64,000 nt of DNA from the NCBI GenBank assembly GCA_045531475.1, contig JAZSEB010000024.1, forward strand, positions 88,017 through 152,016, given 5' to 3'. The stretch's first letter is position 1; each line of letters opens with the position of its first letter. Below the pieces are notes generated by a model. The model saw nothing but the letters and a program-made list of their open reading frames with translations. It did no database searches and had not been told where the DNA came from. The position numbers and the translations under genes were made by a program. Source of the DNA: Paludibacteraceae bacterium. Lineage in GTDB: Bacteria > Bacteroidota > Bacteroidia > Bacteroidales > Paludibacteraceae. Of this stretch, positions 1 to 64,000 are shown piece after piece.

Positions 1-393
1 AGGGAGAGTAGATTCTACCAATTGTGGATTACGCTCGCCAAAAACAAATTTCATCCAATCTACATATTCTTTCCATCCGAGGTTAGTTACCTCATATTTG
101 TCCATATAGAATGGGCTTACAGTCAGAGTTCTGCGTACGCTATTGTGGGGAGCAGTGATAAACTCATCCATTTGTCCAATGGTAAATGAACCACCTGGAA
201 TAGATAGCATACCAGAAGGTATAGTAGAAGGAGCTCCAGCGTAAGCTTCAAAATTTGTGGTGTTCTTGTCAAAGGTTTTCCAACCAGTAAGGTAAGAGGT
301 TTGTGTGTTTAAATCTCCAGCGAATCCACCATTGCAACCAACTAAGGTAACAACTAGACCCAAGAATAATGTTTTTGCTACTTTTTTATTCAT
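1..393 (-). CDS. Partial lipoprotein (N-terminal part only; the gene runs off the left edge) with a SUMF1/FGE-type domain, GldJ/GldK(PorK)-like T9SS/gliding component
   Basis: Absent from the ORF track because no stop lies in the window. ATG at 393 (rc). Translation MNKKVAKTLFLGLVVTLVGCNGG..LTGWKTFDKN..IPSGMLSIPGGSFTIGQ..SPFYMDKYEVTNLGWKEYVDWMKFVF. Lipobox LVGC; the TGW and FYMD.EVTN..W.EY..W blocks match my recollection of GldJ/GldK-family proteins. Confidence 0.5.
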   Translation of the reverse strand, partial: MNKKVAKTLFLGLVVTLVGCNGGFAGDLNTQTSYLTGWKTFDKNTTNFEAYAGAPSTIPSGMLSIPGGSFTIGQMDEFITAPHNSVRRTLTVSPFYMDKYEVTNLGWKEYVDWMKFVFGERNPQLVESTLP

Positions 394-432
394 AATAAAC
401 TCTTTAAAAATGTGCATATTAGTTTCAGCCTG

Positions 433-51884: not shown

Positions 51885-51928
51885 GTCCATGCTCTCGGCG
51901 TACATGCCGAGTATCCCTTTCTCTAAGC
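51885..51928. repeat. CTCGGC-hairpin module, copy 1
   Basis: gtccatgctCTCGGCgtacatGCCGAGtatccctttctctaagc. Stem 51894-51899 pairs with 51906-51911. Confidence 0.85.
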
Positions 51929-53653
51929 ACCAACCACCAACTGTCCCACCTGATAAATCACAAAACTCAACACCCAGGCTAGTATCAGCGACTGTGCAAC
52001 GCTAAACCATGCCCATTTGGCTCCAATCTCTCGGCGCAAGGTTGTTATGGTGGCCACGCATGGGAAGTACAGTAGCACAAACACCATAAACGCAAACGCA
52101 GTCACGGGTGTGAAGGCCGATAAGGCTGTATCGGCAGGGTAGAGTATGCCCATTGTGGATACAATGGCCTCTTTAGCGGGCAATCCTGTCAATAGGCATA
52201 CCGACATCTTCCAGTCGAAGCCTAGTGGGCGCATCACGGGCTCTATCCAATGTCCAATGCTAGCTAAGTAGCTCTCTTCCATATGGTTCATATCTCCGGT
52301 AGGGAAATAGGTCAATGCCCAAATAATCACGCTTGCCCAGATGATCACTGCAGGTATTTTCTGCAAATAGTCGGCTACGCGCTCCCAGATGTGCAATCCT
52401 GTATTGCGCAAGGTGGGGTGGCGGTAGGGTGGCAACTCACTCACGTAATCATGCTTTGGCTGACGAAAAGCGGGCATATGTTGCATCACCCATGCGAAGC
52501 AGATGCTCAACAATATACCTATTATATATAGGGAGAGCATTACCAACGCTTTTTTCTCTGCAAAGAACGCTCCAATGAATAGCATATATACTGGCAGGCG
52601 GGCCGAGCAACTCATAAATGGTACCATCATCATCGTGATCGCGCGGTCTTTCTTATTAGTAATATCACGTGCGGCCATGATAGCTGGCACATTGCATCCA
52701 AAGCCCATCAGCATAGGGATAAATGAACTTCCGTGCAGTCCAATGCGGTGCATCAGTTTGTCCATCATGTATGCGGCACGAGCCATATACCCCGAGTCCT
52801 CCATCAAACTGAGGAAGAAGAACATAATGATAATGTTCGGCAGGAAGGCCAATACCGCACCTATACCCATCACTACACCATCTATCAGCAAACTGCTCCA
52901 CCATGCTGTTGGCATCAGCCCGCGCAGCCAGTCGGCCAATGCGTTTATGCCCATTGCAATCCAATCTTGTGGATAGCTTCCTAGGGTGAAGGTACATTCA
53001 AAAATGGTGTATAGTACGAGTAATAGTATTGGTAGTCCAATCCATTTGTTGGTCAGTACCTTATCTATTTTATCTGCTAGTGTGTGCCCTGTGTCATTTT
53101 TCGCATGCTTCAGGGTCTCTTCCAATGCTCCATGTACGAATCCTCTACGTGCTTGTGCTATCAGTTTGGCTGTAGGAATGCCATACTCTTGCATCAGTTT
53201 TCTTCGCTCTTCTTGGGCTACTTTTATCAGTTCTTCCGAATGTGGCAATAGTGCCAGCATCTCGTCTGGACGTTCCAATAGGCGGATCGCCATATACCTT
53301 TTAGAGTATTTCTCGCGCACGTTGGGCAATGTTACTATCACGTCAATAATATGGGCGATAGCTTCTTCTACGTCTTTGCCATATGCCACATGCACATGCC
53401 TAAATCCTTCTCCTTCGGCTAGTATAGCAGCTTTATCTTCGATGAGTCCAATGCGTACACCGAACAGCTTGCTCAATAGTTGATAATTGAGCATGTGATC
53501 TGTATTCAGAAGCTCTTGATAATGAGTCAGTAGTACCACAAATGGCTGATGGCGGTCCATCAGTGCTGCGGTGCGTACCAGTTCATCCTCCAGATACCTT
53601 GCATCCACTTCCTGAATCTGCACTCCCTGTTCTATATACTCTTTTTCATTCAT
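51923..53653 (-). CDS. FeoB-like ferrous iron permease lacking FeoA and the GTPase P-loop region
   Basis: Helical domain and two Gate domains look intact (..KWIGLPILLLVLY.., ..GLPAKEAIVSTMG..). The N-terminus starts within the G-domain remnant. ATG at 53653 preferred over the GTG at 53668, which lies inside repeat DNA. Confidence 0.7.
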   Translation of the reverse strand: MNEKEYIEQGVQIQEVDARYLEDELVRTAALMDRHQPFVVLLTHYQELLNTDHMLNYQLLSKLFGVRIGLIEDKAAILAEGEGFRHVHVAYGKDVEEAIAHIIDVIVTLPNVREKYSKRYMAIRLLERPDEMLALLPHSEELIKVAQEERRKLMQEYGIPTAKLIAQARRGFVHGALEETLKHAKNDTGHTLADKIDKVLTNKWIGLPILLLVLYTIFECTFTLGSYPQDWIAMGINALADWLRGLMPTAWWSSLLIDGVVMGIGAVLAFLPNIIIMFFFLSLMEDSGYMARAAYMMDKLMHRIGLHGSSFIPMLMGFGCNVPAIMAARDITNKKDRAITMMMVPFMSCSARLPVYMLFIGAFFAEKKALVMLSLYIIGILLSICFAWVMQHMPAFRQPKHDYVSELPPYRHPTLRNTGLHIWERVADYLQKIPAVIIWASVIIWALTYFPTGDMNHMEESYLASIGHWIEPVMRPLGFDWKMSVCLLTGLPAKEAIVSTMGILYPADTALSAFTPVTAFAFMVFVLLYFPCVATITTLRREIGAKWAWFSVAQSLILAWVLSFVIYQVGQLVVGA

Positions 53654-53656
53654 CTC

Positions 53657-53694
53657 TTCACTTTCCACCTTACACCTTACACTCTACACCCTAC
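53657..53694. repeat. Heptamer-like low-complexity module (YTTACAC / CTACACC)
   Basis: ttcactttccaccttacaccttacactctacaccctac. Confidence 0.85.
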
Positions 53695-53699
53695 TTTGC

Positions 53700-53745
53700 C
53701 GTTCATGCTCTCGGCGTACATGCCGAGTATCCTATATCTCTAAAC
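53700..53745. repeat. CTCGGC-hairpin module, copy 2
   Basis: cgttcatgctCTCGGCgtacatGCCGAGtatcctatatctctaaac. Stem 53710-53715 pairs with 53722-53727. Confidence 0.9.
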
Positions 53746-53767
53746 ACTAAACACTAAACACTAAACA
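53740..53767. repeat. Tandem array (CTAAACA)x4
   Basis: Four perfect 7-nt units. Confidence 0.95.
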
Positions 53768-53768
53768 T

Positions 53769-53800
53769 CGCCTTATTGCCTTATCGCCTCATCACCTCCC
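53769..53800. repeat. CGCCTTAT / CCTCATCACC low-complexity module
   Basis: cgccttattgccttatcgcctcatcacctccc. Related copies at 26603-26624 (rc) and inside the CDS at 54611-54680. Confidence 0.8.
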
Positions 53801-53805
53801 TAGCC

Positions 53806-53850
53806 GTCCCTGCCCTCGGCGTATATGCCGAGTATCCTATATCTCTAAAC
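53806..53850. repeat. CTCGGC-hairpin module, copy 3
   Basis: cgtccctgccCTCGGCgtatatGCCGAGtatcctatatctctaaac. Stem 53815-53820 pairs with 53827-53832. Confidence 0.9.
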
Positions 53851-54040
53851 TCTAAACACTAGCCCCCAAGGGGCGTTCACTAAACACTAACCCTAAAGGC
53901 GCGTTAAATCGCCTGCAAAATTACTGCCATTTTTCCAATTGGGCAATACCCAAAAGTGGGTATTTTTATGTTTCGTTTTGGCAATTTTTCGTTTCAAAGT
54001 ACTGTAACTGCGTTATAACCAACTGCTTATGTCGGAAATA

Positions 54041-54050
54041 CCCCCCCCCC
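54041..54050. repeat. C10 homopolymer tract
   Basis: ggaaata-CCCCCCCCCC-gctg, about 70 nt upstream of the -33 region of the 54143 promoter. Confidence 0.95.
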
Positions 54051-54142: not shown

Positions 54143-54150
54143 TACCTTTG
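54143..54150 (+). promoter_or_regulatory. -7 promoter box (TACCTTTG) for the Ser-rich protein / surface locus
   Basis: Exact motif 29 nt before the ATG at 54179, with a TTTG -33 element about 19 nt upstream. Confidence 0.55.
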
Positions 54151-54178: not shown

Positions 54179-55180
54179 ATGAAGACAAATTTTAATATAT
54201 TTATTCTATTGTTCGTGTGCCTACTAATAGGCAGTATGTGGTCTGTGCTACATATGAGTATGGATGAAAATTCCTTAGCGCATAACCCTAGCAACATAAC
54301 GGAATTGCTGGGCGAGCAGTCTGAGGATCAGTCGTTGAATGGTTCGCCGTTTACGAATGCTACCCTGTCTGGAGGACAGTCTAACAGCAGTGCTTTGTCG
54401 CTTGGTGGCTTGAGGGGGTCAACTATGTCCTTCTCTAGTCGTGCAAACCGTGCGCCCCTTGTTTCGTACGCGCGTAACGCGAGCTCGCAACCCAGTTCTT
54501 TGCCTTCTGGCTCAACTGCTGCGTCGCCTATTTCGCATTTTACCAGTGCGGGTGAGTATCATTCGTTTGGTGGTGGCGTTATGGTTGGTGGGAACTATGC
54601 TTCCTCTTCAGGCCTTATTGCCTCATCGCCTTCTAACCTCATCACCTCATCGCCAATCGCCTACAGCTCATTGCCTATAGCCAACCGCTCTGTTTCTTCT
54701 TCCCAGGGCTCGACGGGCGAAGTGATGCCTGTTGCAGACCAATCTTTCTCTGTAGCGTCGGCGTCATATACATCGCCTTTCGCTGCGGACTATGCCTTCA
54801 ACTCCTATGGCACAGCTTCCTATGGCGGCTATTCCAGCCCTAACCGCATCGGTGGCAGACAGAATGCACCTGGCTCTGGCTTGGGTAATACTTGGCTCAA
54901 CTGGTTGGATAACTATTTTGGTGCAAGCACCACTTTCGATTATGATAGTGCTTTAGCAGCATATAACGAGATGATTGCTTCTTGGAATGCAGGAATGGGT
55001 GATCCTCCTAATTTCGATGACTTCTTAGCTTGGCTTATGGCCGGTGGTGAAGGTGGATATACCAAGAACGATCACACCTACAATTACGTGCCTGTTGGCG
55101 GTATTTTGCCACTCTTCCTCATGGCTCTCATTTATGCGATAATCCTCTTTGTTAAACGAAATAAAACTGCTCAATTATGA
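54179..55180 (+). CDS. Ser-rich, low-complexity protein with N- and C-terminal TM helices (hypothetical)
   Basis: 333 aa. N-terminal FNIFILLFVCLLIGSMWSVL; about 200 aa rich in Ser/Gly/Ala; C-terminal VPVGGILPLFLMALIYAIILFVKRNK. Its stop overlaps the next ATG (ATGA). Confidence 0.5.
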   Translation: MKTNFNIFILLFVCLLIGSMWSVLHMSMDENSLAHNPSNITELLGEQSEDQSLNGSPFTNATLSGGQSNSSALSLGGLRGSTMSFSSRANRAPLVSYARNASSQPSSLPSGSTAASPISHFTSAGEYHSFGGGVMVGGNYASSSGLIASSPSNLITSSPIAYSSLPIANRSVSSSQGSTGEVMPVADQSFSVASASYTSPFAADYAFNSYGTASYGGYSSPNRIGGRQNAPGSGLGNTWLNWLDNYFGASTTFDYDSALAAYNEMIASWNAGMGDPPNFDDFLAWLMAGGEGGYTKNDHTYNYVPVGGILPLFLMALIYAIILFVKRNKTAQL

Positions 55181-57111
55181 TAAAGAAATTTTTCTCCGCA
55201 CTCCTTGTAGTGCTTTTTGCCACATCTGTGATGGCGCAATCGGGTCTTACTTGCGAGGATCCTATTCCTGTAAACAAGAATTTTACTGGCACAATCGCCG
55301 AGCCTGGTGAGTATTGGTTTACTGCATGGTCATACGATTTGCCTTTGAATGTGCACTTTGTTCCAGAGGTAGACAATAGTTCAAAATGGCCAGAGGTTTA
55401 CGTTGATTTCACATGTGTTCCTGGTGTATATGATGATCCAAAGTTGGATAGTGTCATTAATGGTTTCACAAGCTTTGGCCTTGAGTTGCCAGTCGAGTTA
55501 ACTTGTTCCAAAGTGGTACGTGGCGATAAGGTAGAATGGGACTTGTCTATCGGTTCTAACTATCGTGACAACCTCACTGAGTGCGGTATCACCCATAATG
55601 TGCAAGCTTTTGTTCGAGTATCTTTTCCTGAGGCAGGTGAGATTATTTTGAATCCTGATACCACCTATACTTCATGTATGGAGAACGCAGACTATGTCAC
55701 ATTGGGTAATACGTTTGATGTTCTCGCTAACGATTCCGACCGTGTATTTGTATTGCCATATTCCGAATGGAAGAAAGACAGCGTACAATTCGCATGGGAA
55801 GGCGATCAACCTGCTACGGTTTGGGTAGCAAGCATGGAGTGTGATTTCTATCCATCCAACGCTAGTGGATTTGTTTGGACACACTATGATGTGGCTGCTG
55901 ACAAGCCTTATGTACTTTCTAACCAAGCCATCAACGACGCTGTTAAAAACCAAGAGGGTGGTGGAGTGTTCTTTGCAAAAGTAATCAGCGAAGGCGAGGG
56001 AAAGCTAACCATTCAGAAAGCGCCTCTTTCTCCAATCCAAGGTGATGCTATTTTGCTTGAATTAGGACAGCCAGTCAAGGTGGGTGCTAATGATCAACAA
56101 CTCTTCTGCTTCCCACGCACTTGGAAGGCTACTGAGTTTGTATCTCCTACCAAGTACGTGATGCATATGTATGCTTCCAATACATCCGAGTTTACTCCTT
56201 CTGCTGATGATGCAAATGTGTTGGCATACTATTCATTCTTGCTTGATAACAACAAGCGTCAATTGCAATTGTCATACCAAGATGTTCAGCAGTTGGCTGC
56301 TTCTGCAACCGATGATTATATCTATGTTCGCTTCCAATGTAACGAGGCAACAACCATCACTCCTACGGCTTGGACATCTTCCACCTGCGCAAACCAGTCT
56401 ATCCTTTTGTGCTCAGGACAAGAGGTAAGTGTACCAAGTCTATCAAAAGATGTCCTTTATCGTCTCCGTTATGCTGATTGGAAAGACTATGATATGACTA
56501 TCAATTGGACCAACCGCTCACGTCCAGTTCCTGTTTATTTTGCTTCTGTATGCGATTTCACCCTTTCTTCTACTGCGCCAAATGTAGTTTACTACAAGAG
56601 TTGCCGCATGGGAGCAACCACGATAACTGCTGAAGAAGTCAATGCTTGGGCTGCGAATGTGGATGAAGAAGGCTTCTTGTATGTTCGTATGAACCCACAA
56701 GCGGGTGGTAAAGCAACTTTCACTACTACCAAACCTGCGGAGGAAGATCCAGAGATTATCACCAACGAGTGTGTGGAGGGCAGCATCAAACTCAATGTGG
56801 GCGACCAAATCACTTTGAACCTCGACAGTGCGTTCACCGTTTATTGCTTCAATTATGCGGAGTGGGCAGCTCAAAACGTTACTTTCCAATGGGCAGGCGA
56901 AGAAGCTTTGCATACGTTTGTAGCCGAGACTTGCCAGTTCGCAGTAGCACCATACAACAAGTATGTGGTTAATTACGTAGCTATTCCAGCGCAAGGCAAA
57001 CTCGTGCTAGACGCAGCTACATTGGCCGCTTTCGCAGATAAGGTTGACGATGCAGGTTATCTCTACATCCGCTTCCTCACCGAGAAAGAAGGCACACTAA
57101 CCATAAAATAA
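55177..57111 (+). CDS. Secreted protein built from five related Cys-containing modules of about 115-130 aa (hypothetical)
   Basis: Signal peptide ..ATSVMAQS. Module ends recur: GVFFAKVISEGEGKLTIQK, DDYIYVRFQCNEATTITP, EGFLYVRMNPQAGGKATFTT, AGYLYIRFLTEKEGTLTIK. Internal Y.EW....F.W.G and C.F motifs also recur. Confidence 0.6.
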   Translation: MIKKFFSALLVVLFATSVMAQSGLTCEDPIPVNKNFTGTIAEPGEYWFTAWSYDLPLNVHFVPEVDNSSKWPEVYVDFTCVPGVYDDPKLDSVINGFTSFGLELPVELTCSKVVRGDKVEWDLSIGSNYRDNLTECGITHNVQAFVRVSFPEAGEIILNPDTTYTSCMENADYVTLGNTFDVLANDSDRVFVLPYSEWKKDSVQFAWEGDQPATVWVASMECDFYPSNASGFVWTHYDVAADKPYVLSNQAINDAVKNQEGGGVFFAKVISEGEGKLTIQKAPLSPIQGDAILLELGQPVKVGANDQQLFCFPRTWKATEFVSPTKYVMHMYASNTSEFTPSADDANVLAYYSFLLDNNKRQLQLSYQDVQQLAASATDDYIYVRFQCNEATTITPTAWTSSTCANQSILLCSGQEVSVPSLSKDVLYRLRYADWKDYDMTINWTNRSRPVPVYFASVCDFTLSSTAPNVVYYKSCRMGATTITAEEVNAWAANVDEEGFLYVRMNPQAGGKATFTTTKPAEEDPEIITNECVEGSIKLNVGDQITLNLDSAFTVYCFNYAEWAAQNVTFQWAGEEALHTFVAETCQFAVAPYNKYVVNYVAIPAQGKLVLDAATLAAFADKVDDAGYLYIRFLTEKEGTLTIK

Positions 57112-57120
57112 CGTCTAATC

Positions 57121-57159
57121 CTTACCCATCTCCCTCCCTTTGGGAGGGTTGGGGTAGGC
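57121..57159. repeat. 39-nt hairpin module, copy 1; also the likely terminator of the 644-aa gene
   Basis: cttacccatctCCCTCCCtttGGGAGGGttggggtaggc followed by TTTTTT. Copy 2 lies at 57492-57530. Confidence 0.8.
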
Positions 57160-57247
57160 TTTTTTAGGGCATAGGCCATTGGCTTGACCTATGCTCACAA
57201 AGAAAGTGTTCTTTCAAACTATTGACCACTCGCTTGCCACTGGGTTC

Positions 57248-57324
57248 CATCGTGACCTCATCGTGACCTCATCGTGACTTCATCGTGACCTCATCGTGAC
57301 CTCACCATGACTTCACCGTAACAG
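57248..57324. repeat. Tandem array (CATCGTGACCT)x5 plus 2 degenerate units, 11-nt unit
   Basis: Units start at 57248, 57259, 57270, 57281 and 57292, then decay to caccatgactt and caccgtaacag. Confidence 0.95.
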
Positions 57325-57335
57325 CCACCTGCTAG

Positions 57336-57401
57336 CATTGGAACCTCATTGGAACCTGATTGGAATCTCATTGGAACCTCACCGAGCGATCACCGAGAGA
57401 C
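57336..57401. repeat. Tandem array (CATTGGAACCT)x4 plus 2 degenerate units, 11-nt unit
   Basis: Units start at 57336, 57347, 57358 and 57369, then decay to caccgagcgat and caccgagagac. Confidence 0.9.
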
Positions 57402-57491
57402 GACCAAGAGAATTTCCTGCAATCGGCAAGCTCCAATCGGTCCAATTTTCGGCATACTTGCCGAGCAAAACAAATATTAAAATAACAACCT

Positions 57492-57530
57492 CTTACCCAT
57501 CTCCTTCCCTTTGGGAGGGCTGAGGTAGGC
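57492..57530. repeat. 39-nt hairpin module, copy 2
   Basis: cttacccatctCCTTCCCtttGGGAGGGctgaggtaggc. Three substitutions relative to copy 1 and no T-run. Confidence 0.8.
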
Positions 57531-57586
57531 TAAAAACGAATTATAATCAACTTTTAAACATAACGCCACAAGGCGTAAAAAAGCTT

Positions 57587-60500
57587 ATGAAAAAAATATT
57601 GTCAGTTTTAGTATGTGTATTTTTGGGAGTTAGTAGCATATGGGCTCAGGCAGGTTCTGCAATTATTTCTGCTCGTGCAGTTTGCGATGACGACGGGGAT
57701 GGTGTATACACTCCAGGAGGTGGTACTGTGCAGGCGAGTGCTCAAACGTGGACATGGAAAACAGTTTCCTTACAATCCTCTGTCGTTAGTGGAGATGTAT
57801 GGGAGGCTTCATCTGCAACAGGACAAGGTGGCTATCATAAGGGTATTTTCACAACATATACCAACCCATATTATGTTCAAGCAACTCGTAAATCCACGAG
57901 CCAAAACTACTATTTTACAGGTTGGTATTCTGGAACGGACAAAGGAGTTACTCTTTCTGCGCCATTAGGAGAGGGAGATACTTATAAAAAAGATTATGCT
58001 TATAATGTCAGCGGAACAGACTATGTGTATGCTGTGTTTAAGAAGGTGATTAACCCTAACCAATCATCAATCTCTTGGACAAAAACCACACTTAATGCTA
58101 CTTTGCCAACAGAGGTCGCACTATATAAGGCAACTAATTTCCAAGTCGCTAGCATTACTTACAATGGAAATACAAACACTTCTTCGTTTACTTGTACCCC
58201 AAGTAGTACAACCACATCGGATGGCAAAATAACGCTCACTCTCTCTGCGGGTGAAGATGTGAAAGATGGAGACAAATTTGTAATCACTCTTACATCTGAT
58301 AATAATGGTTATGCAACGATTACGGTTGATATTCTAACCGAAATACAAGTGCTATTTACGCCTCCTATAAAAGGTAAAGGTTCATATACTGCTGTACGAA
58401 CCAATTCCGATGGTGGTACAACTTGTACGCTAGACCAAAATAGTTCAGCATATACGGCCACATTTGATGACATCAAACGTTTCTATCATACACTAACTGC
58501 TACACCAGATGAAGGATATCAGTTCTATCGTTGGGTAATAGAAGATGCAAATGGAGTGACTTATTATACCACTAACCCTTATGGCTATACGGTCAAGAAT
58601 GGAGATCGTATCTCTGTTGAGTTCCTGCCTGAAGGTGTTGCACAATTCATAGTGAAAGGAGTGGATGGTGTATACTACTACGAGTTAGATGCTGCTATTG
58701 CTGCGGCTCAAAATTCTACTAGTAAAACAGTTGTAGTTGCTTCTAGTGGTTCTTTGAATACAGATTATAAGACGCCTAATGCAGACGGACAATATGAGTT
58801 CACAATCCCTGCAGGCATCACGCTCCTTGTCCCAGGCGATGCTGCATATACGGTGCAAAACAATGGTGTTACAAGTGCTGAAGTAGCAGGAAGTACGAGC
58901 AAGTCAACACTGTATCGTAAATTGATTTTATTGCCAAATACCTCTATTATTGCTAATGGTAATATATGTATCTACTCTAAATTATCAAATCTTCAACAAC
59001 ATAATGGTCGTCCATATGAGTATGGACAACTAGATATGGGAGACAACTGCCATATAGTCATGAAAAATGGGGGTAGACTTACGGTATATGGATACATATC
59101 TGGAAATCCAGAGACAACTAGTGTCGTCGCTGAGTCTGGATCTACTGTTTATGAAGTATTCCAATTTACGGATTGGCGCGGAGGAACAGCAATAACAGGA
59201 GGACTAAGTCTAGGGTTATTAGGAGATAAATTTGGAGCTGTTAACAATGATCAACATATTTTCCCATTGTCTCAATATTATTTGCAGAATATTGAAACGA
59301 AATTGATTGTCTATTCTGGAGCAACAGAATATGTATCAGGTGTGATAGAGGCTTTGGATATGGTTGCTCCAGTTAATATGAAGTTGATAACAAAAGCTAC
59401 GACTGGAGAGGATCAGGGTTTTTTATGTTTGGGTGATAATACGAAGCTAACAAAATGGTATGATGCTGATAACGATAGACAAAAATATTTGATTGAAGGT
59501 GATCAAGGCATAGCAGGTGCCACCGCGAAAATGAGTTATATGTACCTTTCGCTTAAACTATCAATTAAAACAGTAACATTGGATTCTCGAAACTATGTTC
59601 TTCCTATCAATAACAATATTGATATCAGTGTCAACAATGTTACGATTATCTCCCCTTACGATATATGTTTCTTAGCTGGCTCTACTTTCACAATTGACAA
59701 AGATGCAGAATTTCAGGTGAATGAAGGATCCAAGATGTTTATTTATGATAAAGAACCCATTTATGTAGATGAATCAACTTCGTATGAGGGCTTTGTATAT
59801 CCGAATAACGTATTGATAAATCCAATCAAATATACAATAGCGAAAAAAGGTAATCGTACTGCGGCTAATACCCTAGATGCTTCATTTATTGTGAATGGAA
59901 AATTGACTGTCAATGGTGCCCTATACACTACAAAATTCGGTACGAATATCATAGATGCAACAGAACAACAACAAAATTATGGTGCAAATATTACATCCGA
60001 TGGTGGAGGTGAGGTAATTTTTAGCAAAATAGGTACAGAACAGATAACATATCAATATACCCAAAGTGGAACGACTTTAACGCCACTTACCATTCCTGTT
60101 TCTAATGCTCGTTTACGCAATGCTGATAAATCATTTTCTGCGGGTGAAAATGCGAATGTCGACGAGAATTATATTTATTATAATGATATAGAAGGAGGTA
60201 AATGGTGCTTACCAACAAATGCCTTTACAAAAAGCAATATTCCTACACTTTCTGTAACCCTTCCTACAGCATCTGATACTCAATTTGCTGAGTTCAAATT
60301 ACGCAGTACAGGTATGCTCGCAAGCAATTTTGCAGCATCTTCTGACAATGCTGCGTTCGTGACAGGAGAAATAACAATCGAGGGTGATAAACTTAAAGTG
60401 CCTATCACCTACACTGCTCAAAACAAACAAGGTTCAGTTATGGCTAACATCACACTCACATATACTCCAGAGAGTTTCAGCTTGACAGAACCTATCACTG

Positions 60501-63500
60501 CTATAGAAGATTATACTCCTGCTTTTGGTGTATCTTCTACCGAACTCGCATTTGATCCTATTGGTGTATATGCCTTTACGGAAAAATCACTTGCGATTAC
60601 GCCTAATGCAAATAATGTAACTACTCTGTTGGATAATGAAAACATGAAATGGACAAGTTCTATTTCAGGTGCAAATAGCAGCGAATTTAAGTTTACCTTC
60701 GGAGATGGCAGCAATAAGTTGTCTGGTGGCATGGTTACATACCTACCAGTTTCATCAGGTAGCAAGTCCGCTACGCTGACACTCACTGCCACTTATACCG
60801 ATGCAAATAATGTCAAGCAAACCAAATCGATAGATGTTCCTCTAACTGCAACTGCCAACCTTAATATAAATACACTAGCATTTGCAGAAGACGACTTCCC
60901 AACAGAGATAGTGGAAGGAGTTACAGATCCATTCCTACTATTCAAAGATGGTAGCGATAATGCACAAACCGAAATTCTTACCGAGCTTAGCGAGAATGGC
61001 ATAGTTGAAATCACCAAAACCGATGGCAAATACTACGTAAATGTATTATCTGCTGGTACAGTTACCATCACGGCGGTGCAATCTGCATCTACCGTTGTAG
61101 CTGGTTGCACGATTTCAACTACTATCACTGTTAAGCCAAAATCACTATTGCTTGGTCATGTAGAAGTATGTATTGATACAAAAGAAATATTCAATATTCA
61201 TACAGTTAGTGCCAATGCAGTAAGTTATTCAAGCAACAACACGATAGACTTTGCTTCTACTGAAACTACATCATCAGAATGGGTGTTCCAATTCTTGGGT
61301 ATTCCTGATCAATTGACATTTATCCCTACTGGCAACAATACTTGGAATATTGAAGAGCGTGCGTCAGATGATGATGCATGGTCTGCTGTAGTCAACTGGA
61401 CACACTTCACAGCAGGAACAGAAGTGGCTGTTTCACTCAAGCCTACCACACGCCAAGTACGCATTCAATATGGTGCAGGACAAAGTGACGTTGCTTCCAT
61501 CAGCTCTCTATGTGTAACTGCGTTTACTATCAAAGCAGATGTAGATAAACTATATTTACCTGTAAATGCTGATGGTACTACAACTTCCAAAGAAGTGAAA
61601 TTTACTCACATTACCGAACCTCTCAACATCCCAACAATTGAGGGTATCACCGCAGTAAAATCTACTTCTGAGAACAAGGGAACAGCTGAGGAACCATACT
61701 ACGAAACTATCGTTACCTTCTCTGCTACGCAAGCTAATAAAAATGCCACTTTGGAGGCATCCGTAACCTTCAACGAAGAAATCCATACAAAGAATATCGC
61801 TATTCGTACATATAACTTCCCACAAGAGTTGCCTATCAAATTAGCAACTGATGATGCAGAAAGATACTATTTCGTTACAACTGCATCTGCATATGCTCAA
61901 TGGGATGAGTCCACTCGTCAGATTAAATTCCAAAACCCTGGTGCACAATTGACTCGTTCTGTAGCCTTTGCATTCAATGGCGCACCTAGCGAAATTCGCT
62001 TTAATGTCTCTTCTGAAATTAATACTGCAGATTGGGTAATCAAAGAAAGTGCTGATGGCGTTACATTCACGGAAGCATCTGCTGATCTACGTACTATTGA
62101 AGGCCAGTTGCTCACACAACCACTTCAATATACAACACGATACCTGATTATCGAATATGTTTCTGCAGACCTTCGAGAAGTAACTCTCTCTAATCTCGTA
62201 ATAGAGGGCTATCCTATGGCATGGGCTACACCAGAGCAACTCGCCTTGAGCGAAGAACAAAAAACAGCATCTTTTGTATTAACCACCGTCAACTTGCAGA
62301 ACATAAAAGTGGTATTGAATAATACTGACTTTAGAATGACGCACGGAAGCAACACGGAAGAAAAAACAGAGATTCTTCTTTCTGCAAGCGATTATGCAGA
62401 TGCTTTAGGTGTGAATAAAGTCGGCGAGATTACTTTCAATGTGATTTGGAAAAGCACAGGCAATGTTAATCAAGGAATTATCTCTATCTACAATGCCGAC
62501 GATAATTCGCTATTGACGACTGTTAAAATTGTAGGTTCTAAAAATGCAATCACCGTTGATGATGTACTAACGGGTATCTATACTGGTATTCCTTCTGGCT
62601 ATACCTCAACCGTAGGTACAGATTATCAATATCATGAGGTTAGTCTCGCAAATGCGTTTGCTAATGATGGAACGGCATTGTTCGATTATCTCATCATCTA
62701 TGGCGAAACCAAAACTACGGATGGTTCATCTGTCATCACTACTCCTACAAGTTCTGCTGGTAGCAATGCCTTGACTCCTTATTATATATACGAGAAAGCA
62801 CTCAACAGCGAAACAAACAAGTATGATGCTTATCGTTTCGTACAACTAGTAGAAAATGCCAATACTCCTAATAAGGCAGAAATTTCGGGAGTTACAACCA
62901 CCGATGATGGTAGTCTTCCATCCATCTATATTGATGTCAATACATCATTGCGAGTATATATGACCGGTTTCTGCCCTTATGCAACAACGGGACACGATAT
63001 GGCCCAAGAAGGCGTATGGTTCTTCCGCGGCACAAATGGCGAGAAACTGGATATCTATCTCGAGGATTGCCATATTTATAGCCGTAACAAATCAGAATTC
63101 GGTACTCCTATGAGTAAATCCGATGTCAATGCATCTATCTTTACAGGAGACTATGCACTAGGTTCGGGTGGTGTACTCGTATTCGAAAATACAGAGAGAT
63201 CCGATAATATGGAAACTGCGCAACCATTGGATGTAACTATTCACACCATTGGTAACAACGTATTCAAGAGTAACTATGGTAGTTTCTACGAGATATTTGG
63301 CATGCGTGCATATCAAATCTCTGCGCCATTGCATATTCACATGAATTCTGCTAAACATGTATTCTCTTCGAAAACAGAACTCACTTTAGATGATGTATGG
63401 CCAACCGAGTTGGATGCAGACCGTGCAATTACGGATTCTACACGTACCAATGGTTTCCTATCTCTGCAAAAGCAAAGCAATAACGCACCATCCATCGACT

Positions 63501-64000
63501 TAGGTAACCCTTACTCAGTAGTGAACTTCCGTGGTGGACAGGTAGAGTTGCAAAATGCGCAGATTGTATCACCTAACTATAAAACTACACTGGCGATCTC
63601 TTATCGTTCTGGTGAATATGGTGGAGATGATACAGGTATTAAATTTGCATATGGTATTGGTACCGACTCTGTGGGTGGTACGGTGAACTTCTACGATGGT
63701 ACAACCACTGTATTACCTATGCCTGTGGATGAGAAATACCGCCAATACTATTTAATGGACGTAGATGAGAATGGAAATGAACTCACTACTACTTCTTGCT
63801 TGCGTACCCCAAGAAATACCTATGTATATGGTGGTTCACAATGCTTCATGCGTGCATGTAGTCACGTAACATCTAAGGGTGGTGCGCCTACGGATGGCTA
63901 TTCGCAATTGGGTCAATATCTCTATACGTTCAATACCGAAGAGGGAGACCAAAAAGATGAAAAGGGATTGGTAACTGCAATGCGCTTCCCTGGAAATGTT
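57587..64000 (+). CDS. Giant secreted/surface protein, partial (more than 2138 aa; continues beyond the right edge)
   Basis: Not in the ORF track because there is no stop. My codon-by-codon reading found no stop from the ATG at 57587 to base 64000 (6414 nt = 2138 codons). The first in-frame upstream stop is at 57521. Signal peptide MKKILSVLVCVFLGVSSIWAQA; FTGW/FYRW Listeria-Bacteroides-repeat-like segments; Big_2-like GTVTITAVQSASTVVAGCTISTTITVKP; Thr/Asn/Ser-rich beta-type sequence throughout. Confidence 0.7.
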   Translation, partial: MKKILSVLVCVFLGVSSIWAQAGSAIISARAVCDDDGDGVYTPGGGTVQASAQTWTWKTVSLQSSVVSGDVWEASSATGQGGYHKGIFTTYTNPYYVQATRKSTSQNYYFTGWYSGTDKGVTLSAPLGEGDTYKKDYAYNVSGTDYVYAVFKKVINPNQSSISWTKTTLNATLPTEVALYKATNFQVASITYNGNTNTSSFTCTPSSTTTSDGKITLTLSAGEDVKDGDKFVITLTSDNNGYATITVDILTEIQVLFTPPIKGKGSYTAVRTNSDGGTTCTLDQNSSAYTATFDDIKRFYHTLTATPDEGYQFYRWVIEDANGVTYYTTNPYGYTVKNGDRISVEFLPEGVAQFIVKGVDGVYYYELDAAIAAAQNSTSKTVVVASSGSLNTDYKTPNADGQYEFTIPAGITLLVPGDAAYTVQNNGVTSAEVAGSTSKSTLYRKLILLPNTSIIANGNICIYSKLSNLQQHNGRPYEYGQLDMGDNCHIVMKNGGRLTVYGYISGNPETTSVVAESGSTVYEVFQFTDWRGGTAITGGLSLGLLGDKFGAVNNDQHIFPLSQYYLQNIETKLIVYSGATEYVSGVIEALDMVAPVNMKLITKATTGEDQGFLCLGDNTKLTKWYDADNDRQKYLIEGDQGIAGATAKMSYMYLSLKLSIKTVTLDSRNYVLPINNNIDISVNNVTIISPYDICFLAGSTFTIDKDAEFQVNEGSKMFIYDKEPIYVDESTSYEGFVYPNNVLINPIKYTIAKKGNRTAANTLDASFIVNGKLTVNGALYTTKFGTNIIDATEQQQNYGANITSDGGGEVIFSKIGTEQITYQYTQSGTTLTPLTIPVSNARLRNADKSFSAGENANVDENYIYYNDIEGGKWCLPTNAFTKSNIPTLSVTLPTASDTQFAEFKLRSTGMLASNFAASSDNAAFVTGEITIEGDKLKVPITYTAQNKQGSVMANITLTYTPESFSLTEPITAIEDYTPAFGVSSTELAFDPIGVYAFTEKSLAITPNANNVTTLLDNENMKWTSSISGANSSEFKFTFGDGSNKLSGGMVTYLPVSSGSKSATLTLTATYTDANNVKQTKSIDVPLTATANLNINTLAFAEDDFPTEIVEGVTDPFLLFKDGSDNAQTEILTELSENGIVEITKTDGKYYVNVLSAGTVTITAVQSASTVVAGCTISTTITVKPKSLLLGHVEVCIDTKEIFNIHTVSANAVSYSSNNTIDFASTETTSSEWVFQFLGIPDQLTFIPTGNNTWNIEERASDDDAWSAVVNWTHFTAGTEVAVSLKPTTRQVRIQYGAGQSDVASISSLCVTAFTIKADVDKLYLPVNADGTTTSKEVKFTHITEPLNIPTIEGITAVKSTSENKGTAEEPYYETIVTFSATQANKNATLEASVTFNEEIHTKNIAIRTYNFPQELPIKLATDDAERYYFVTTASAYAQWDESTRQIKFQNPGAQLTRSVAFAFNGAPSEIRFNVSSEINTADWVIKESADGVTFTEASADLRTIEGQLLTQPLQYTTRYLIIEYVSADLREVTLSNLVIEGYPMAWATPEQLALSEEQKTASFVLTTVNLQNIKVVLNNTDFRMTHGSNTEEKTEILLSASDYADALGVNKVGEITFNVIWKSTGNVNQGIISIYNADDNSLLTTVKIVGSKNAITVDDVLTGIYTGIPSGYTSTVGTDYQYHEVSLANAFANDGTALFDYLIIYGETKTTDGSSVITTPTSSAGSNALTPYYIYEKALNSETNKYDAYRFVQLVENANTPNKAEISGVTTTDDGSLPSIYIDVNTSLRVYMTGFCPYATTGHDMAQEGVWFFRGTNGEKLDIYLEDCHIYSRNKSEFGTPMSKSDVNASIFTGDYALGSGGVLVFENTERSDNMETAQPLDVTIHTIGNNVFKSNYGSFYEIFGMRAYQISAPLHIHMNSAKHVFSSKTELTLDDVWPTELDADRAITDSTRTNGFLSLQKQSNNAPSIDLGNPYSVVNFRGGQVELQNAQIVSPNYKTTLAISYRSGEYGGDDTGIKFAYGIGTDSVGGTVNFYDGTTTVLPMPVDEKYRQYYLMDVDENGNELTTTSCLRTPRNTYVYGGSQCFMRACSHVTSKGGAPTDGYSQLGQYLYTFNTEEGDQKDEKGLVTAMRFPGNV

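What the first reader, a model, noticed from the sequence alone, without database searches (positions are those of the whole stretch)
57587..64000. Giant ORF of more than 2138 codons, open to the window edge and invisible in the ORF track
The frame opening at the ATG at 57587 (first ATG after an in-frame TGA at 57521) stays open for all 6414 remaining nt. The track lists no plus-strand ORF at all between 57968 and 64000, as expected if one frame never closes. The product starts with a type-I signal peptide. It then shows two segments resembling Listeria-Bacteroides (InlB B-type) repeats (NYYFTGWYSG.., GYQFYRWVIE..). A stretch with parallel-beta-helix-like character follows (ITLLVPGDAAY.., NTSIIANGNICIYS, DNCHIVMKNGGRLTVYGYISG). 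It also has at least one Big_2-like Ig segment and several about 100-aa beta-sandwich-looking units (..WNIEERASDDDAWSAVVNWTHF.., ..DWVIKESADGVTFTEAS..). I see no catalytic or toxin motif. A GldJ/GldK-like gene at the left edge suggests the organism has a T9SS, so a giant T9SS-exported adhesin in the style of SprB or RemA is one hypothesis. The domain order matches nothing I can name.
Basis: partly seen in the sequence, partly recalled or inferred. Interest (0 to 1): 0.7.

Follow-up and report, generated by a model that had tools for sequence, protein, structure and literature searches.

The report
Giant T9SS surface protein, uncharacterised family
The open frame is real: it is the first ~80% of a ~2,700-residue protein that an uncultured gut Bacteroidales (Paludibacteraceae-like) bacterium most likely exports to its surface through the type IX secretion system. 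The family has no described relatives, and its function (probably strain-variable adhesion) is inferred, not shown.

Summary
The frame from the ATG at 57587 stays open for 2138 codons to the window edge and begins with a Sec signal peptide. Full-length orthologues (2,650-2,900 aa, up to 85% identical) show that about 560 residues are missing.

The family occurs almost only in gut Paludibacteraceae/Bacteroidales MAGs, often twice per genome. It has no Pfam, NCBIfam or PDB sequence match.

AlphaFold models of two slices are confident (pLDDT 84-86). Foldseek finds only generic Ig-like domains and, at the extreme C-terminus, the fold of T9SS C-terminal sorting domains. That tail falls below the TIGR04183 cutoff. 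It is, however, linked by profile comparison (99% probability) to tails of distant relatives, all of which hit TIGR04183 and three of which pass its cutoff.

The gene sits in a conserved locus of at least six genes. This locus includes a second giant protein with a canonical T9SS domain.

The N-terminal ~850 residues are a recombining mosaic. They contain a ~500-residue module shared at ~30% identity with Firmicutes surface and dockerin proteins.

The SprB/RemA likeness is only functional. The beta-helix and Big_2 calls are not supported. Adhesion remains an inference.

The parts
57587..64000 (+). Giant ORF (here called GIANT1), first 2138 codons of a ~2,700-codon gene; it runs off the window
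   Evidence: Open frame. Full-length orthologues are 2661-2918 aa. The window ends at the position matching residue 2109 of the 2671-aa orthologue P0001, so ~562 aa are missing.
57587..57649 (+). Sec (signal peptidase I type) signal peptide, aa 1-21, predicted cleavage IWA|Q
   Evidence: Read from the sequence. The N-terminus is conserved in orthologues. No predictor was run.
57650..58636 (+). N-terminal strain-variable beta-domain region (aa 22-350). It ends in an InlB B-repeat-like domain; the Flg_new_2 match covers aa 302-341 (nt 58490-58609).
   Evidence: Pfam sub-threshold hit. The AlphaFold model shows a beta-sandwich at model residues 1-97. Identity to close orthologues swings from 16% to 98%.
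58637..60139 (+). N-module (aa ~351-851): ~500-aa beta-rich module with no Pfam or PDB match, shared with Firmicutes surface proteins
   Evidence: Model pLDDT 86.5, with no structural match beyond Ig-like domains. About 30% identity to Oscillospiraceae/Clostridia proteins. Polar residues invariant across phyla: E523, R531, Q563, Q567, E570, D630, D721, D764, N845.
58852..59875 (+). Recombinant cassette inside the N-module. It has no megablast-level DNA similarity to the otherwise ~94%-identical strain represented by locus L002.
   Evidence: blastn of the window against L002. Protein identity is 40-65% here against 93-100% downstream.
60164..62545 (+). Stalk of Ig-like/beta-sandwich domains (aa ~860-1653). 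It includes a tandem duplication of a ~215-260-aa unit at about nt 61166-61804 and 61742-62530.
   Evidence: Ig-like Foldseek hits for model residues ~609-724. hhalign self-match at 98% probability.
62546..64000 (+). First half of the C-module (aa 1654-2138), the most conserved part of the family. The rest of the module, plus a linker and the T9SS C-terminal domain, lie beyond the window.
   Evidence: Conservation profile. Model of P0001 aa 1625-2671 has pLDDT 84.4. The module occurs in only 265 of 1.84 billion representative proteins.
54179..55180 (+). ORF1, first gene of the locus: 333 aa, with an N-terminal hydrophobic segment, a Ser-rich low-complexity middle and a C-terminal transmembrane helix
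   Evidence: Translation. Conserved upstream of ORF2 and GIANT1 in many loci. No Pfam or NCBIfam hit.
55177..57111 (+). ORF2: 644-aa secreted protein made of three ~200-aa modules. Its start overlaps the stop of ORF1 by 4 nt.
   Evidence: Translation. 46-77% identical homologues lie upstream of GIANT1 in about 25 loci. No family hit.
57121..57531 (+). ORF2-GIANT1 spacer. It holds two copies of a 40-nt palindromic hairpin (57121-57160 followed by a T run, and 57492-57531) flanking 11-nt tandem repeats (57237-57401).
54143..54150 (+). TAccTTTG, a match to the Bacteroidetes -7 promoter consensus TAnnTTTG, 29 nt upstream of ORF1. No such match lies directly upstream of GIANT1.
   Evidence: Read from the sequences. 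The consensus is taken from my own knowledge. Its function is inferred.
1..417 (-). N-terminal part of a GldJ/GldK-like T9SS/gliding lipoprotein gene, running off the left edge. It is context for the finding, not part of the locus.

Best explanation
The ORF encodes the first ~80% of a ~2,700-residue cell-surface protein of an uncultured gut Bacteroidales (Paludibacteraceae-like) bacterium. It belongs to an undescribed family.

Proposed mechanism:
1. The signal peptide takes the protein across the inner membrane (inferred from sequence).
2. A ~70-residue C-terminal beta-sandwich, a diverged type A / DUF6383-like T9SS sorting domain, directs it through the type IX secretion system. It probably stays attached to the cell surface by its C-terminal end. 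This step is shown by homology and fold for orthologues, and is inferred for this copy because the tail lies beyond the window.
3. The highly conserved ~950-residue C-module would then be proximal to the cell.
4. The tandem Ig-like/beta-sandwich domains would form a stalk.
5. The N-terminal ~850 residues, made of B-repeat-like domains plus a 500-residue module with a conserved polar site, would form the distal head. This head is exchanged between strains and would bind, or possibly cleave, an external ligand, most likely a glycan or envelope polymer.

The protein is made together with five conserved partners: a membrane protein, a 640-aa secreted protein, a Cys-repeat protein, a second giant T9SS cargo and an OMP-like protein. 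It probably forms a multi-protein surface structure with them. Topology, ligand and partnership are all inferred.
For: - The open frame and signal peptide are real.
- Full-length orthologues exist, but only uncharacterised ones.
- Taxonomic range is Paludibacteraceae/Bacteroidales gut MAGs. At least 10 MAGs carry two copies.
- C-terminal tail: Foldseek gives prob 1.00 to the NucA CTD in the T9SS translocon complex and 0.99 to the RgpB CTD. The tail follows a low-confidence Gly-rich linker.
- Sub-threshold TIGR04183 and DUF6383 hits on the tails. DUF6383 is described as the putative T9SS targeting domain of P. gingivalis PG2216 (PMC9722745).
- Tails of nine distant relatives that carry the same C-module all hit TIGR04183 first, three above cutoff. 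They are homologous to this family's tails (hhalign 99.1%).
- A GldJ/GldK-like gene lies in the window.
- The locus ORF1-ORF2-GIANT1-Cys-repeat protein-GIANT2-OMP-like is conserved, and GIANT2 carries a canonical TIGR04183 domain at 30.7 bits.
- The N-terminus is a mosaic whose identity pattern fits no single tree, and a ~1-kb cassette has been replaced between strains that are ~94% identical at DNA level. This is what is expected of an exposed, selected tip.
- The N-module also occurs in Firmicutes proteins anchored by other means: dockerin, choline-binding repeats, Flg_new/Fn3. That marks it as an autonomous extracellular functional module.
Against: - The sorting domain is not in the window.
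- The tails of the closest orthologues do not reach the curated TIGR04183 cutoff (best 16.2 bits against 23).
- Those tails show no profile similarity to the canonical CTDs of the neighbouring GIANT2 (hhalign 2.6%).
- A 63-71-residue beta-sandwich match with TM 0.53-0.57 is not strong evidence on its own.
- Nothing tests adhesion. The invariant Glu/Asp/Arg/Gln/Asn set in the N-module would suit an enzyme as well as a binding site.
- The family is depleted in the Bacteroidetes O-glycosylation sequon (2 observed against ~10 expected). This is unlike well-studied T9SS surface glycoproteins.
- No gene expression or protein data exist.
Confidence: 0.6

Rival explanations
1. Surface coat / S-layer-like lattice. 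GIANT1 and GIANT2 would be the two building blocks of a T9SS-exported surface layer, as TfsA and TfsB are in Tannerella forsythia, with the other locus genes serving assembly or anchoring.
For: Two very large T9SS cargo proteins are encoded side by side in one conserved locus. Both are rich in Ig-like/beta-sandwich domains. The C-module is highly conserved, as expected for lattice contacts. The TfsA/TfsB comparison comes from my own knowledge.
Against: S-layer glycoproteins of Bacteroidetes are heavily O-glycosylated, whereas GIANT1 is depleted in the sequon. Two divergent copies of the locus per genome and cassette exchange confined to the N-terminal head fit a binding tip better than a lattice. 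No sequence comparison with TfsA/TfsB was run.
Confidence: 0.15
2. Surface-tethered enzyme. The N-module, the C-module or both would be a new catalytic domain (glycan- or envelope-polymer-active, or a peptidase), displayed on the surface by the T9SS.
For: An invariant set of charged and polar residues is kept across Firmicutes and Bacteroidales at only ~30% overall identity. Homologues carry dockerins, as cellulosomal enzymes do. Firmicutes homologues lie next to LicD, acetyltransferase, Lgt-like and NAGPA phosphodiester-glycosidase genes. The C-module has an invariant C-x14-C-x4-C set and a CxxC motif.
Against: No match to any catalytic family in Pfam, NCBIfam or PDB, by sequence or by fold. 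Replacement of the core of the N-module between close strains is unusual for a housekeeping enzyme.
Confidence: 0.15
3. Mobile gliding-motility adhesin working like SprB, with the flanking genes playing the supporting roles of SprC, SprD and SprF.
For: A GldJ-like lipoprotein gene is in the window; its best match is GldJ TIGR03524. The giant cargo sits in an operon with accessory genes and an OMP-like gene.
Against: No SprB repeats, no type B CTD, and no PorP/SprF signature in the OMP-like protein. The GldJ match is only an N-terminal fragment, which also matches GldK. Motility of these uncultured organisms is unknown.
Confidence: 0.05
4. Contact-dependent polymorphic toxin or effector-delivery protein.
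For: Giant size, strain-to-strain cassette variation and several copies per genome.
Against: The variable part is N-terminal, while the C-terminal ~1,000 residues are the most conserved. That is the opposite of CdiA/Rhs-type toxins. No toxin, immunity or Rhs/filamentous haemagglutinin domains were found. The extra genes found between ORF2 and GIANT1 in other loci are unrelated ATPases and nucleases.
Confidence: 0.03

Closest known systems
SprB and RemA, giant T9SS-exported gliding adhesins of Flavobacterium johnsoniae
   Same: A giant Bacteroidota protein with a signal peptide and a C-terminal T9SS sorting domain. It is built largely of beta-sandwich repeats and encoded with accessory genes. 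Surface exposure is likely.
   Different: No sequence homology. No SprB repeats and no lectin domain. The tail is type A/DUF6383-like, not type B. There is no PorP/SprF-like neighbour. The host is an anaerobic gut lineage with no known gliding.
TfsA/TfsB, the S-layer glycoproteins of Tannerella forsythia (my own knowledge)
   Same: Two large co-transcribed T9SS type A cargo proteins rich in Ig-like domains, in a Bacteroidales organism.
   Different: The proteins here are about twice as long. GIANT1 is depleted in the O-glycosylation sequon. The locus has four further conserved genes. No sequence comparison was run.
PG2216 of Porphyromonas gingivalis (T9SS cargo with a DUF6383 tail; PMC9722745)
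   Same: The C-terminal tail gives its best Pfam (sub-threshold) matches to DUF6383. The paper describes DUF6383 as a putative T9SS targeting domain.
   Different: [quoted passage not shown] No pectin-lyase-fold match was obtained for GIANT1.
Firmicutes 'InlB B-repeat-containing' and 'dockerin type I repeat-containing' proteins of ~1,000-1,450 aa (uncharacterised)
   Same: They share the B-repeat plus ~500-aa N-module at ~30% identity, with the same invariant polar residues.
   Different: They lack the stalk, the C-module and the T9SS tail. They are anchored by dockerin, choline-binding or other repeats. Their genes are preceded by an Lgt-like gene.

Membership tests
T9SS type A cargo protein | N-terminal Sec signal peptide | tested here: met
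   MKKILSVLVCVFLGVSSIWA|QAG has the n/h/c layout and is conserved in orthologues. Judged by eye; no predictor was run.
T9SS type A cargo protein | C-terminal ~70-80-aa sorting domain recognised by TIGR04183/Por_Secre_tail | tested here: inconclusive
   The domain is not in the window. Orthologue tails score at most 16.2 bits against a cutoff of 23, and full-length scans give nothing. However, hhalign links them at 99.1% to tails of distant relatives. All nine of those hit TIGR04183 first, and three pass the cutoff.
T9SS type A cargo protein | CTD fold (small beta-sandwich at the extreme C-terminus, after a linker) | tested here: met
   AlphaFold model of P0001 aa 1625-2671: a low-confidence linker at model residues 966-983, then a beta-sandwich at 986-1047. 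Foldseek: 8glk_D NucA CTD prob 1.00, TM 0.57, rmsd 2.4; 7pq4 RgpB CTD prob 0.99, TM 0.53. Tested on an orthologue, not on the window copy.
T9SS type A cargo protein | T9SS machinery encoded by the same genome | tested here: inconclusive
   One component fragment only: a GldJ/GldK-like lipoprotein N-terminus at nt 417-1, - strand (E 4e-17 and 5e-15). The neighbouring GIANT2 in related loci carries a canonical TIGR04183 domain.
T9SS type A cargo protein | Secretion depends on the T9SS, with the CTD cleaved by PorU | not testable with these tools
   Needs proteomics or genetics.
SprB-type gliding adhesin | SprB repeats (PF13573) | tested here: not met
   No Pfam hit in the window ORF or in full-length orthologues.
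SprB-type gliding adhesin | Type B CTD (TIGR04131) and an adjacent PorP/SprF-like outer-membrane protein | tested here: not met
   No TIGR04131 hit on full-length proteins or tails, even at E<=10. The 444-aa OMP-like protein gives only a weak OMP_b-brl hit and no PorP_SprF hit.
InlB B-repeat (Flg_new_2, PF18998) containing protein | Score above Pfam's gathering threshold | tested here: inconclusive
   Window ORF: 20.2 bits against 23.6. P0001: 21.2 bits. P0003 and P0004 carry a precomputed PF18998 hit. Firmicutes homologues pass at the equivalent position with 25.2 and 27.5 bits.
Right-handed parallel beta-helix (pectin-lyase fold) | Structural match to beta-helix proteins | tested here: not met
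   None among the top 50 Foldseek PDB matches listed for either confident model, nor in BFVD for the C-terminal model. Caveat: whole multi-domain models were searched, not single domains.
Big_2 (PF02368) Ig-like domain | Pfam match | tested here: not met
   No hit at E<=0.01. Generic Ig-like folds are present by Foldseek.
Polymorphic toxin (CdiA/Rhs type) | Variable C-terminal toxin domain on a conserved delivery scaffold | tested here: not met
   The C-terminal ~1,000 aa are the most conserved and the N-terminus is the variable part. No toxin domains were found.

The most novel reading that the evidence does not exclude
The conserved locus would encode a previously unseen T9SS-dependent surface organelle specific to gut Paludibacteraceae. 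Its genes are a membrane protein, a 640-aa secreted protein, GIANT1, a Cys-repeat (probably O-glycosylated) protein, a second giant T9SS cargo and an OMP-like protein. GIANT1 would be the organelle's strain-variable receptor-binding fibre. Its N-module and C-module would be new folds or new binding or catalytic domains; the N-module is shared across the Gram divide with Firmicutes surface and cellulosome-type proteins.
Probability: 0.25. Interest if true: 0.65.

Novelty: new variant of a known kind. Interest (0 to 1): 0.42.

Why it matters
Paludibacteraceae are common but uncultured members of human and livestock gut communities, and how they attach to substrates, hosts or other microbes is unknown.

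This family would be a major surface component. It is encoded in one or two copies per genome, in a large conserved locus, and its exposed head is swapped between strains.

It also defines two large modules, about 500 and 950 residues long, that are confidently modelled but have no counterpart in Pfam, in the PDB or (for the larger, the only one searched there) in the viral structure library. One of them is shared with Firmicutes surface proteins.

The finding gives T9SS research a new cargo class and a diverged sorting-domain variant. It does not overturn any concept: giant T9SS surface proteins of unknown function are an established category.

Tried and rejected
- Pfam and NCBIfam scans of the ORF, its two upstream genes and three full-length orthologues returned only a sub-threshold B-repeat.
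- PDB sequence searches found nothing credible. I ran the single sequence and profiles of the whole family, of the C-module and of the N-module including Firmicutes members.
- tblastn against plasmids gave no match.
- Foldseek of both models against the PDB, and of the C-terminal model against viral structures, gave only Ig-like and CTD-size matches.
- GIANT2 was tested as a paralogue of GIANT1 and is not one.
- Direct profile comparison of GIANT1 tails with the canonical CTDs of GIANT2 was negative. The link had to be made through intermediate relatives.
- Recovering the real 3' end by an exact 40-nt search of JGI metagenome contigs gave no match.
- Literature searches for Paludibacteraceae plus T9SS, giant Bacteroidales adhesins, and Paludibacter plus gldJ found nothing on this family. 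The McBride & Zhu survey is not held in the library.
- The 40-nt hairpin was checked as a dispersed repeat. It occurs only twice in the window and in none of the fetched loci.
- The toxin and SprB-family readings were rejected on domain and conservation grounds.

Full report
**Observation**

Translating 57521-64000 gives a single stop (the TGA at 57521) and then 2138 sense codons from the ATG at 57587 to the last base of the window. The five other frames of the same stretch contain 81-196 stops, so the open frame cannot be chance. The ORF lister leaves out ORFs that run off the source and shows no long + strand ORF after 57968, which explains the 'invisible' gene. The start is supported by orthologues that begin with the same MKKILSVLVCV.... 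The N-terminus has the layout of a signal-peptidase-I signal (IWA|Q); I read this from the sequence and did not run a predictor.

**What the protein is related to**

A search of 5.8 billion proteins found 38 relatives. The closest are 66-85% identical over the whole query and are 2,661-2,715 aa long. More distant ones (39-52% identity) are 2,780-2,920 aa. None has a name beyond 'hypothetical protein', and none carries a Pfam domain other than an occasional PF18998. The window ends at the position matching residue 2109 of the 2671-aa orthologue P0001, so about 562 residues are missing.

A scan of one genome per species found the full-length family in about 40 loci. All are from Paludibacteraceae or unclassified Bacteroidales MAGs from faeces, rumen or caecum. 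At least ten MAGs carry two copies, and in one case both lie on the same contig.

Pfam, NCBIfam and PDB sequence searches gave nothing except a sub-threshold Flg_new_2 (InlB B-repeat) match at aa 302-341. This covers both single sequences and family profiles.

**Architecture**

The family alignment and its conservation profile show a variable N-terminus, a moderately conserved middle, and a highly conserved last ~1,000 residues.

I modelled two slices with AlphaFold, using the family alignment as input.

- Window aa 252-1003 gave pLDDT 86.5 and pTM 0.80. It contains a small beta-sandwich (the B-repeat-like domain), a ~500-residue beta-rich core with few helices, and an Ig-like domain. Foldseek against the PDB returned only generic Ig-like matches such as Fabs and Dscam. 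No beta-helix structure appeared.
- P0001 aa 1625-2671 gave pLDDT 84.4 and pTM 0.68. No match reached E<=1e-3 in the PDB and none was credible in the viral structure library. The exception is the last ~65 residues, described below.

The middle region contains a tandem duplication of a ~215-260-aa unit at about window aa 1194-1406 and 1386-1648 (hhalign 98%, E 4e-14). A weaker duplication lies further upstream.

The parallel beta-helix and Big_2 calls are therefore not supported. One caveat applies: whole multi-domain models were searched, not single domains.

**The C-terminal tail and the secretion route**

In the model, the last ~65 residues form a beta-sandwich that follows a low-confidence Gly-rich linker. 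Its only high-probability Foldseek matches are T9SS C-terminal domains:

- the NucA CTD bound in the T9SS translocon complex (8glk_D: prob 1.00, TM 0.57, rmsd 2.4 Å over 63 columns);
- the RgpB CTD (7pq4: prob 0.99, TM 0.53);
- the C-terminal part of a GH2 glycoside hydrolase, CapGH2b.

By sequence, the tails of the closest orthologues stay below curated thresholds. The best TIGR04183 score is 16.2 bits against a cutoff of 23, and DUF6383 gives E 0.016-0.037. DUF6383 is described as the putative T9SS targeting domain of the P. gingivalis cargo PG2216 (PMC9722745).

A direct profile comparison with the canonical CTDs of the neighbouring second giant protein was negative (2.6%).

The link came from intermediates. 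A profile search of 1.84 billion representative proteins with the C-module (tail excluded) found only 265 relatives. These include a class of ~1,500-1,750-aa proteins in which the same module again sits just before an ~80-residue tail. Nine of nine such tails hit TIGR04183 as their best family, three above the cutoff. Their profile matches the GIANT1 tails at 99.1% probability (E 4e-19 over 70 columns).

Two further facts fit. The co-operonic giant protein has a canonical TIGR04183 domain at 30.7 bits.

I conclude that the family is T9SS cargo with a diverged type A sorting domain. For the window copy this remains an inference. The orthologue's DNA is ~94% identical to the window over the shared 3' 4.1 kb.

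**The locus**

ORF1 (54179-55180) encodes a membrane protein with a Ser-rich middle. ORF2 (55177-57111) encodes a 644-aa secreted protein of three ~200-aa modules. Both precede GIANT1 in about 25 loci.

Downstream, in the two closest contigs and many others, come three further genes:

- a 320-1,165-aa Cys-repeat protein;
- a second giant protein, 2,928 aa in the closest species. It is unrelated in sequence to GIANT1 and is built of modules resembling those of ORF2 plus Cys-containing C-terminal repeats;
- in five loci where the sequence reaches that far, a 444-aa protein with a weak OMP beta-barrel signature.

None of these has a family assignment.

A match to the Bacteroidetes -7 promoter consensus lies 29 nt upstream of ORF1 and none lies directly upstream of GIANT1 (read; the consensus is from my own knowledge). 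The 475-nt ORF2-GIANT1 spacer holds two copies of a 40-nt palindromic hairpin flanking 11-nt tandem repeats. In other species the same position holds inserted ATPase and nuclease genes.

**Variation**

Identity between the window protein and its nine closest orthologues forms a mosaic:

| Orthologue | aa 121-420 | aa 421-840 | aa 900-2138 |
|---|---|---|---|
| P0001 | 90-98% | 40-65% | 76-100%, mostly 93-100% |
| P0003 | 28-63% | 60-83% | 78-100%, mostly 93-100% |

No single tree explains this pattern. At DNA level the window and the P0001 contig are ~94% identical on both sides of a ~1-kb gap (58852-59875) that has no detectable similarity. The N-terminal head is therefore exchanged by recombination between closely related strains.

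**The N-module outside Bacteroidales**

Residues ~300-870 match, at ~30% identity, proteins of ~1,000-1,450 aa in Oscillospiraceae, Lachnospiraceae, Ruminococcus, Anaerotruncus and other Firmicutes. There the module again follows a B-repeat, which in those proteins passes Pfam's cutoff. It is combined with Flg_new, Fn3, choline-binding or dockerin domains.

Across 34 sequences from both phyla a set of polar residues is invariant or nearly so: E523, R531, Q563, Q567, E570, D630, D721, D764 and N845. This points to a conserved binding or catalytic site.

**Interpretation**

Shown:
- a real, very long gene;
- an uncharacterised family with a narrow taxonomic range;
- a conserved multi-gene locus;
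- a CTD-like tail in orthologues;
- a recombining head;
- a head module shared with Firmicutes surface proteins.

Inferred:
- export by the T9SS and attachment by the C-terminal end;
- the conserved C-module at the base, the Ig-like domains as a stalk, and the variable head outermost;
- a ligand-binding (adhesin) role;
- co-operation with the other locus products.

Rivals are an S-layer-like coat (compare TfsA/TfsB), a surface-tethered enzyme, a SprB-like gliding adhesin, and a polymorphic toxin. The last two fail on tested features.

**Novelty**

The kind of thing (a giant T9SS surface protein) is known. The family, its two large modules and its locus are not described in any library or paper I could search. 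I rate it a new variant of a known kind, of moderate interest.

Noticed in passing
window 57587-64000; orthologues P0001-P0036; L001:17986-20529: The Bacteroidetes O-glycosylation sequon D[ST][AILVMT] is strongly depleted in GIANT1. The window ORF has 2 against 10.3 expected, and most orthologues have 0-2 against ~12 (z -3 to -4). P0010 and P0025 are exceptions. The next gene's Cys-repeat protein is enriched instead (19 against 4.8, z +6, one 'DTT[IL]C' per repeat).
   Followed up: partly
window 57121-57531: Two copies (93% identical) of a 40-nt palindromic hairpin flank 11-nt tandem repeats (CATCGTGACCT about 6 times, CATTGGAACCT about 4 times) between ORF2 and GIANT1. The first hairpin is followed by a T run, like a terminator. 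The hairpin core occurs nowhere else in the window or in the 76 fetched loci.
   Followed up: partly
window 54040-54050: A C10 homopolymer lies ~130 nt upstream of ORF1, just upstream of the putative promoter. It could be a slipped-strand phase-variation tract (read).
   Followed up: no
window 53666-53905: The FeoB-ORF1 intergenic region is packed with short tandem repeats (CACCCTA x4, CTAAACA x4, ATCGCCTT x4, and a 28-nt unit x2).
   Followed up: no
L006:6747-9552; L037:8143-9483: In other species the ORF2-GIANT1 spacer holds inserted genes for AAA/DUF234 or AAA_14/DUF4143 ATPases and a YhcG PDDEXK nuclease. The position looks like an insertion hot spot.
   Followed up: partly
L044-L076 (Firmicutes loci), e.g. 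L074:8748-9422: In at least 17 Firmicutes loci the N-module gene is immediately preceded by a ~220-aa Lgt-like (PF01790) membrane-protein gene. It is often flanked by LicD, a hexapeptide acyltransferase and a large NAGPA/choline-binding protein.
   Followed up: partly
window 51923-53668 (- strand); L001:4551-6278: The FeoB-like ORF (581 aa) matches only the second half of the FeoB_N G-domain profile (positions 80-138 of 156, E 0.0015). The orthologue in the related MAG has the same length (575 aa).
   Followed up: no
C-module, P0001 aa 2042-2062 and 2452-2455 (window aa 2071, 2086, 2091): An invariant C-x14-C-x4-C cluster, plus an invariant CxxC (FPYCTGCW) beyond the window, in the otherwise Cys-poor protein. 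This may be a metal or redox site.
   Followed up: no
L001:17986-20529; L037:18540-19502: The Cys-repeat proteins downstream of GIANT1 end in a shared motif of the form NG-x-IYI-x-R-x4-Y-x3-G (e.g. ENGMIYILRGNHKYSIMG). It is not a type A CTD by NCBIfam.
   Followed up: no
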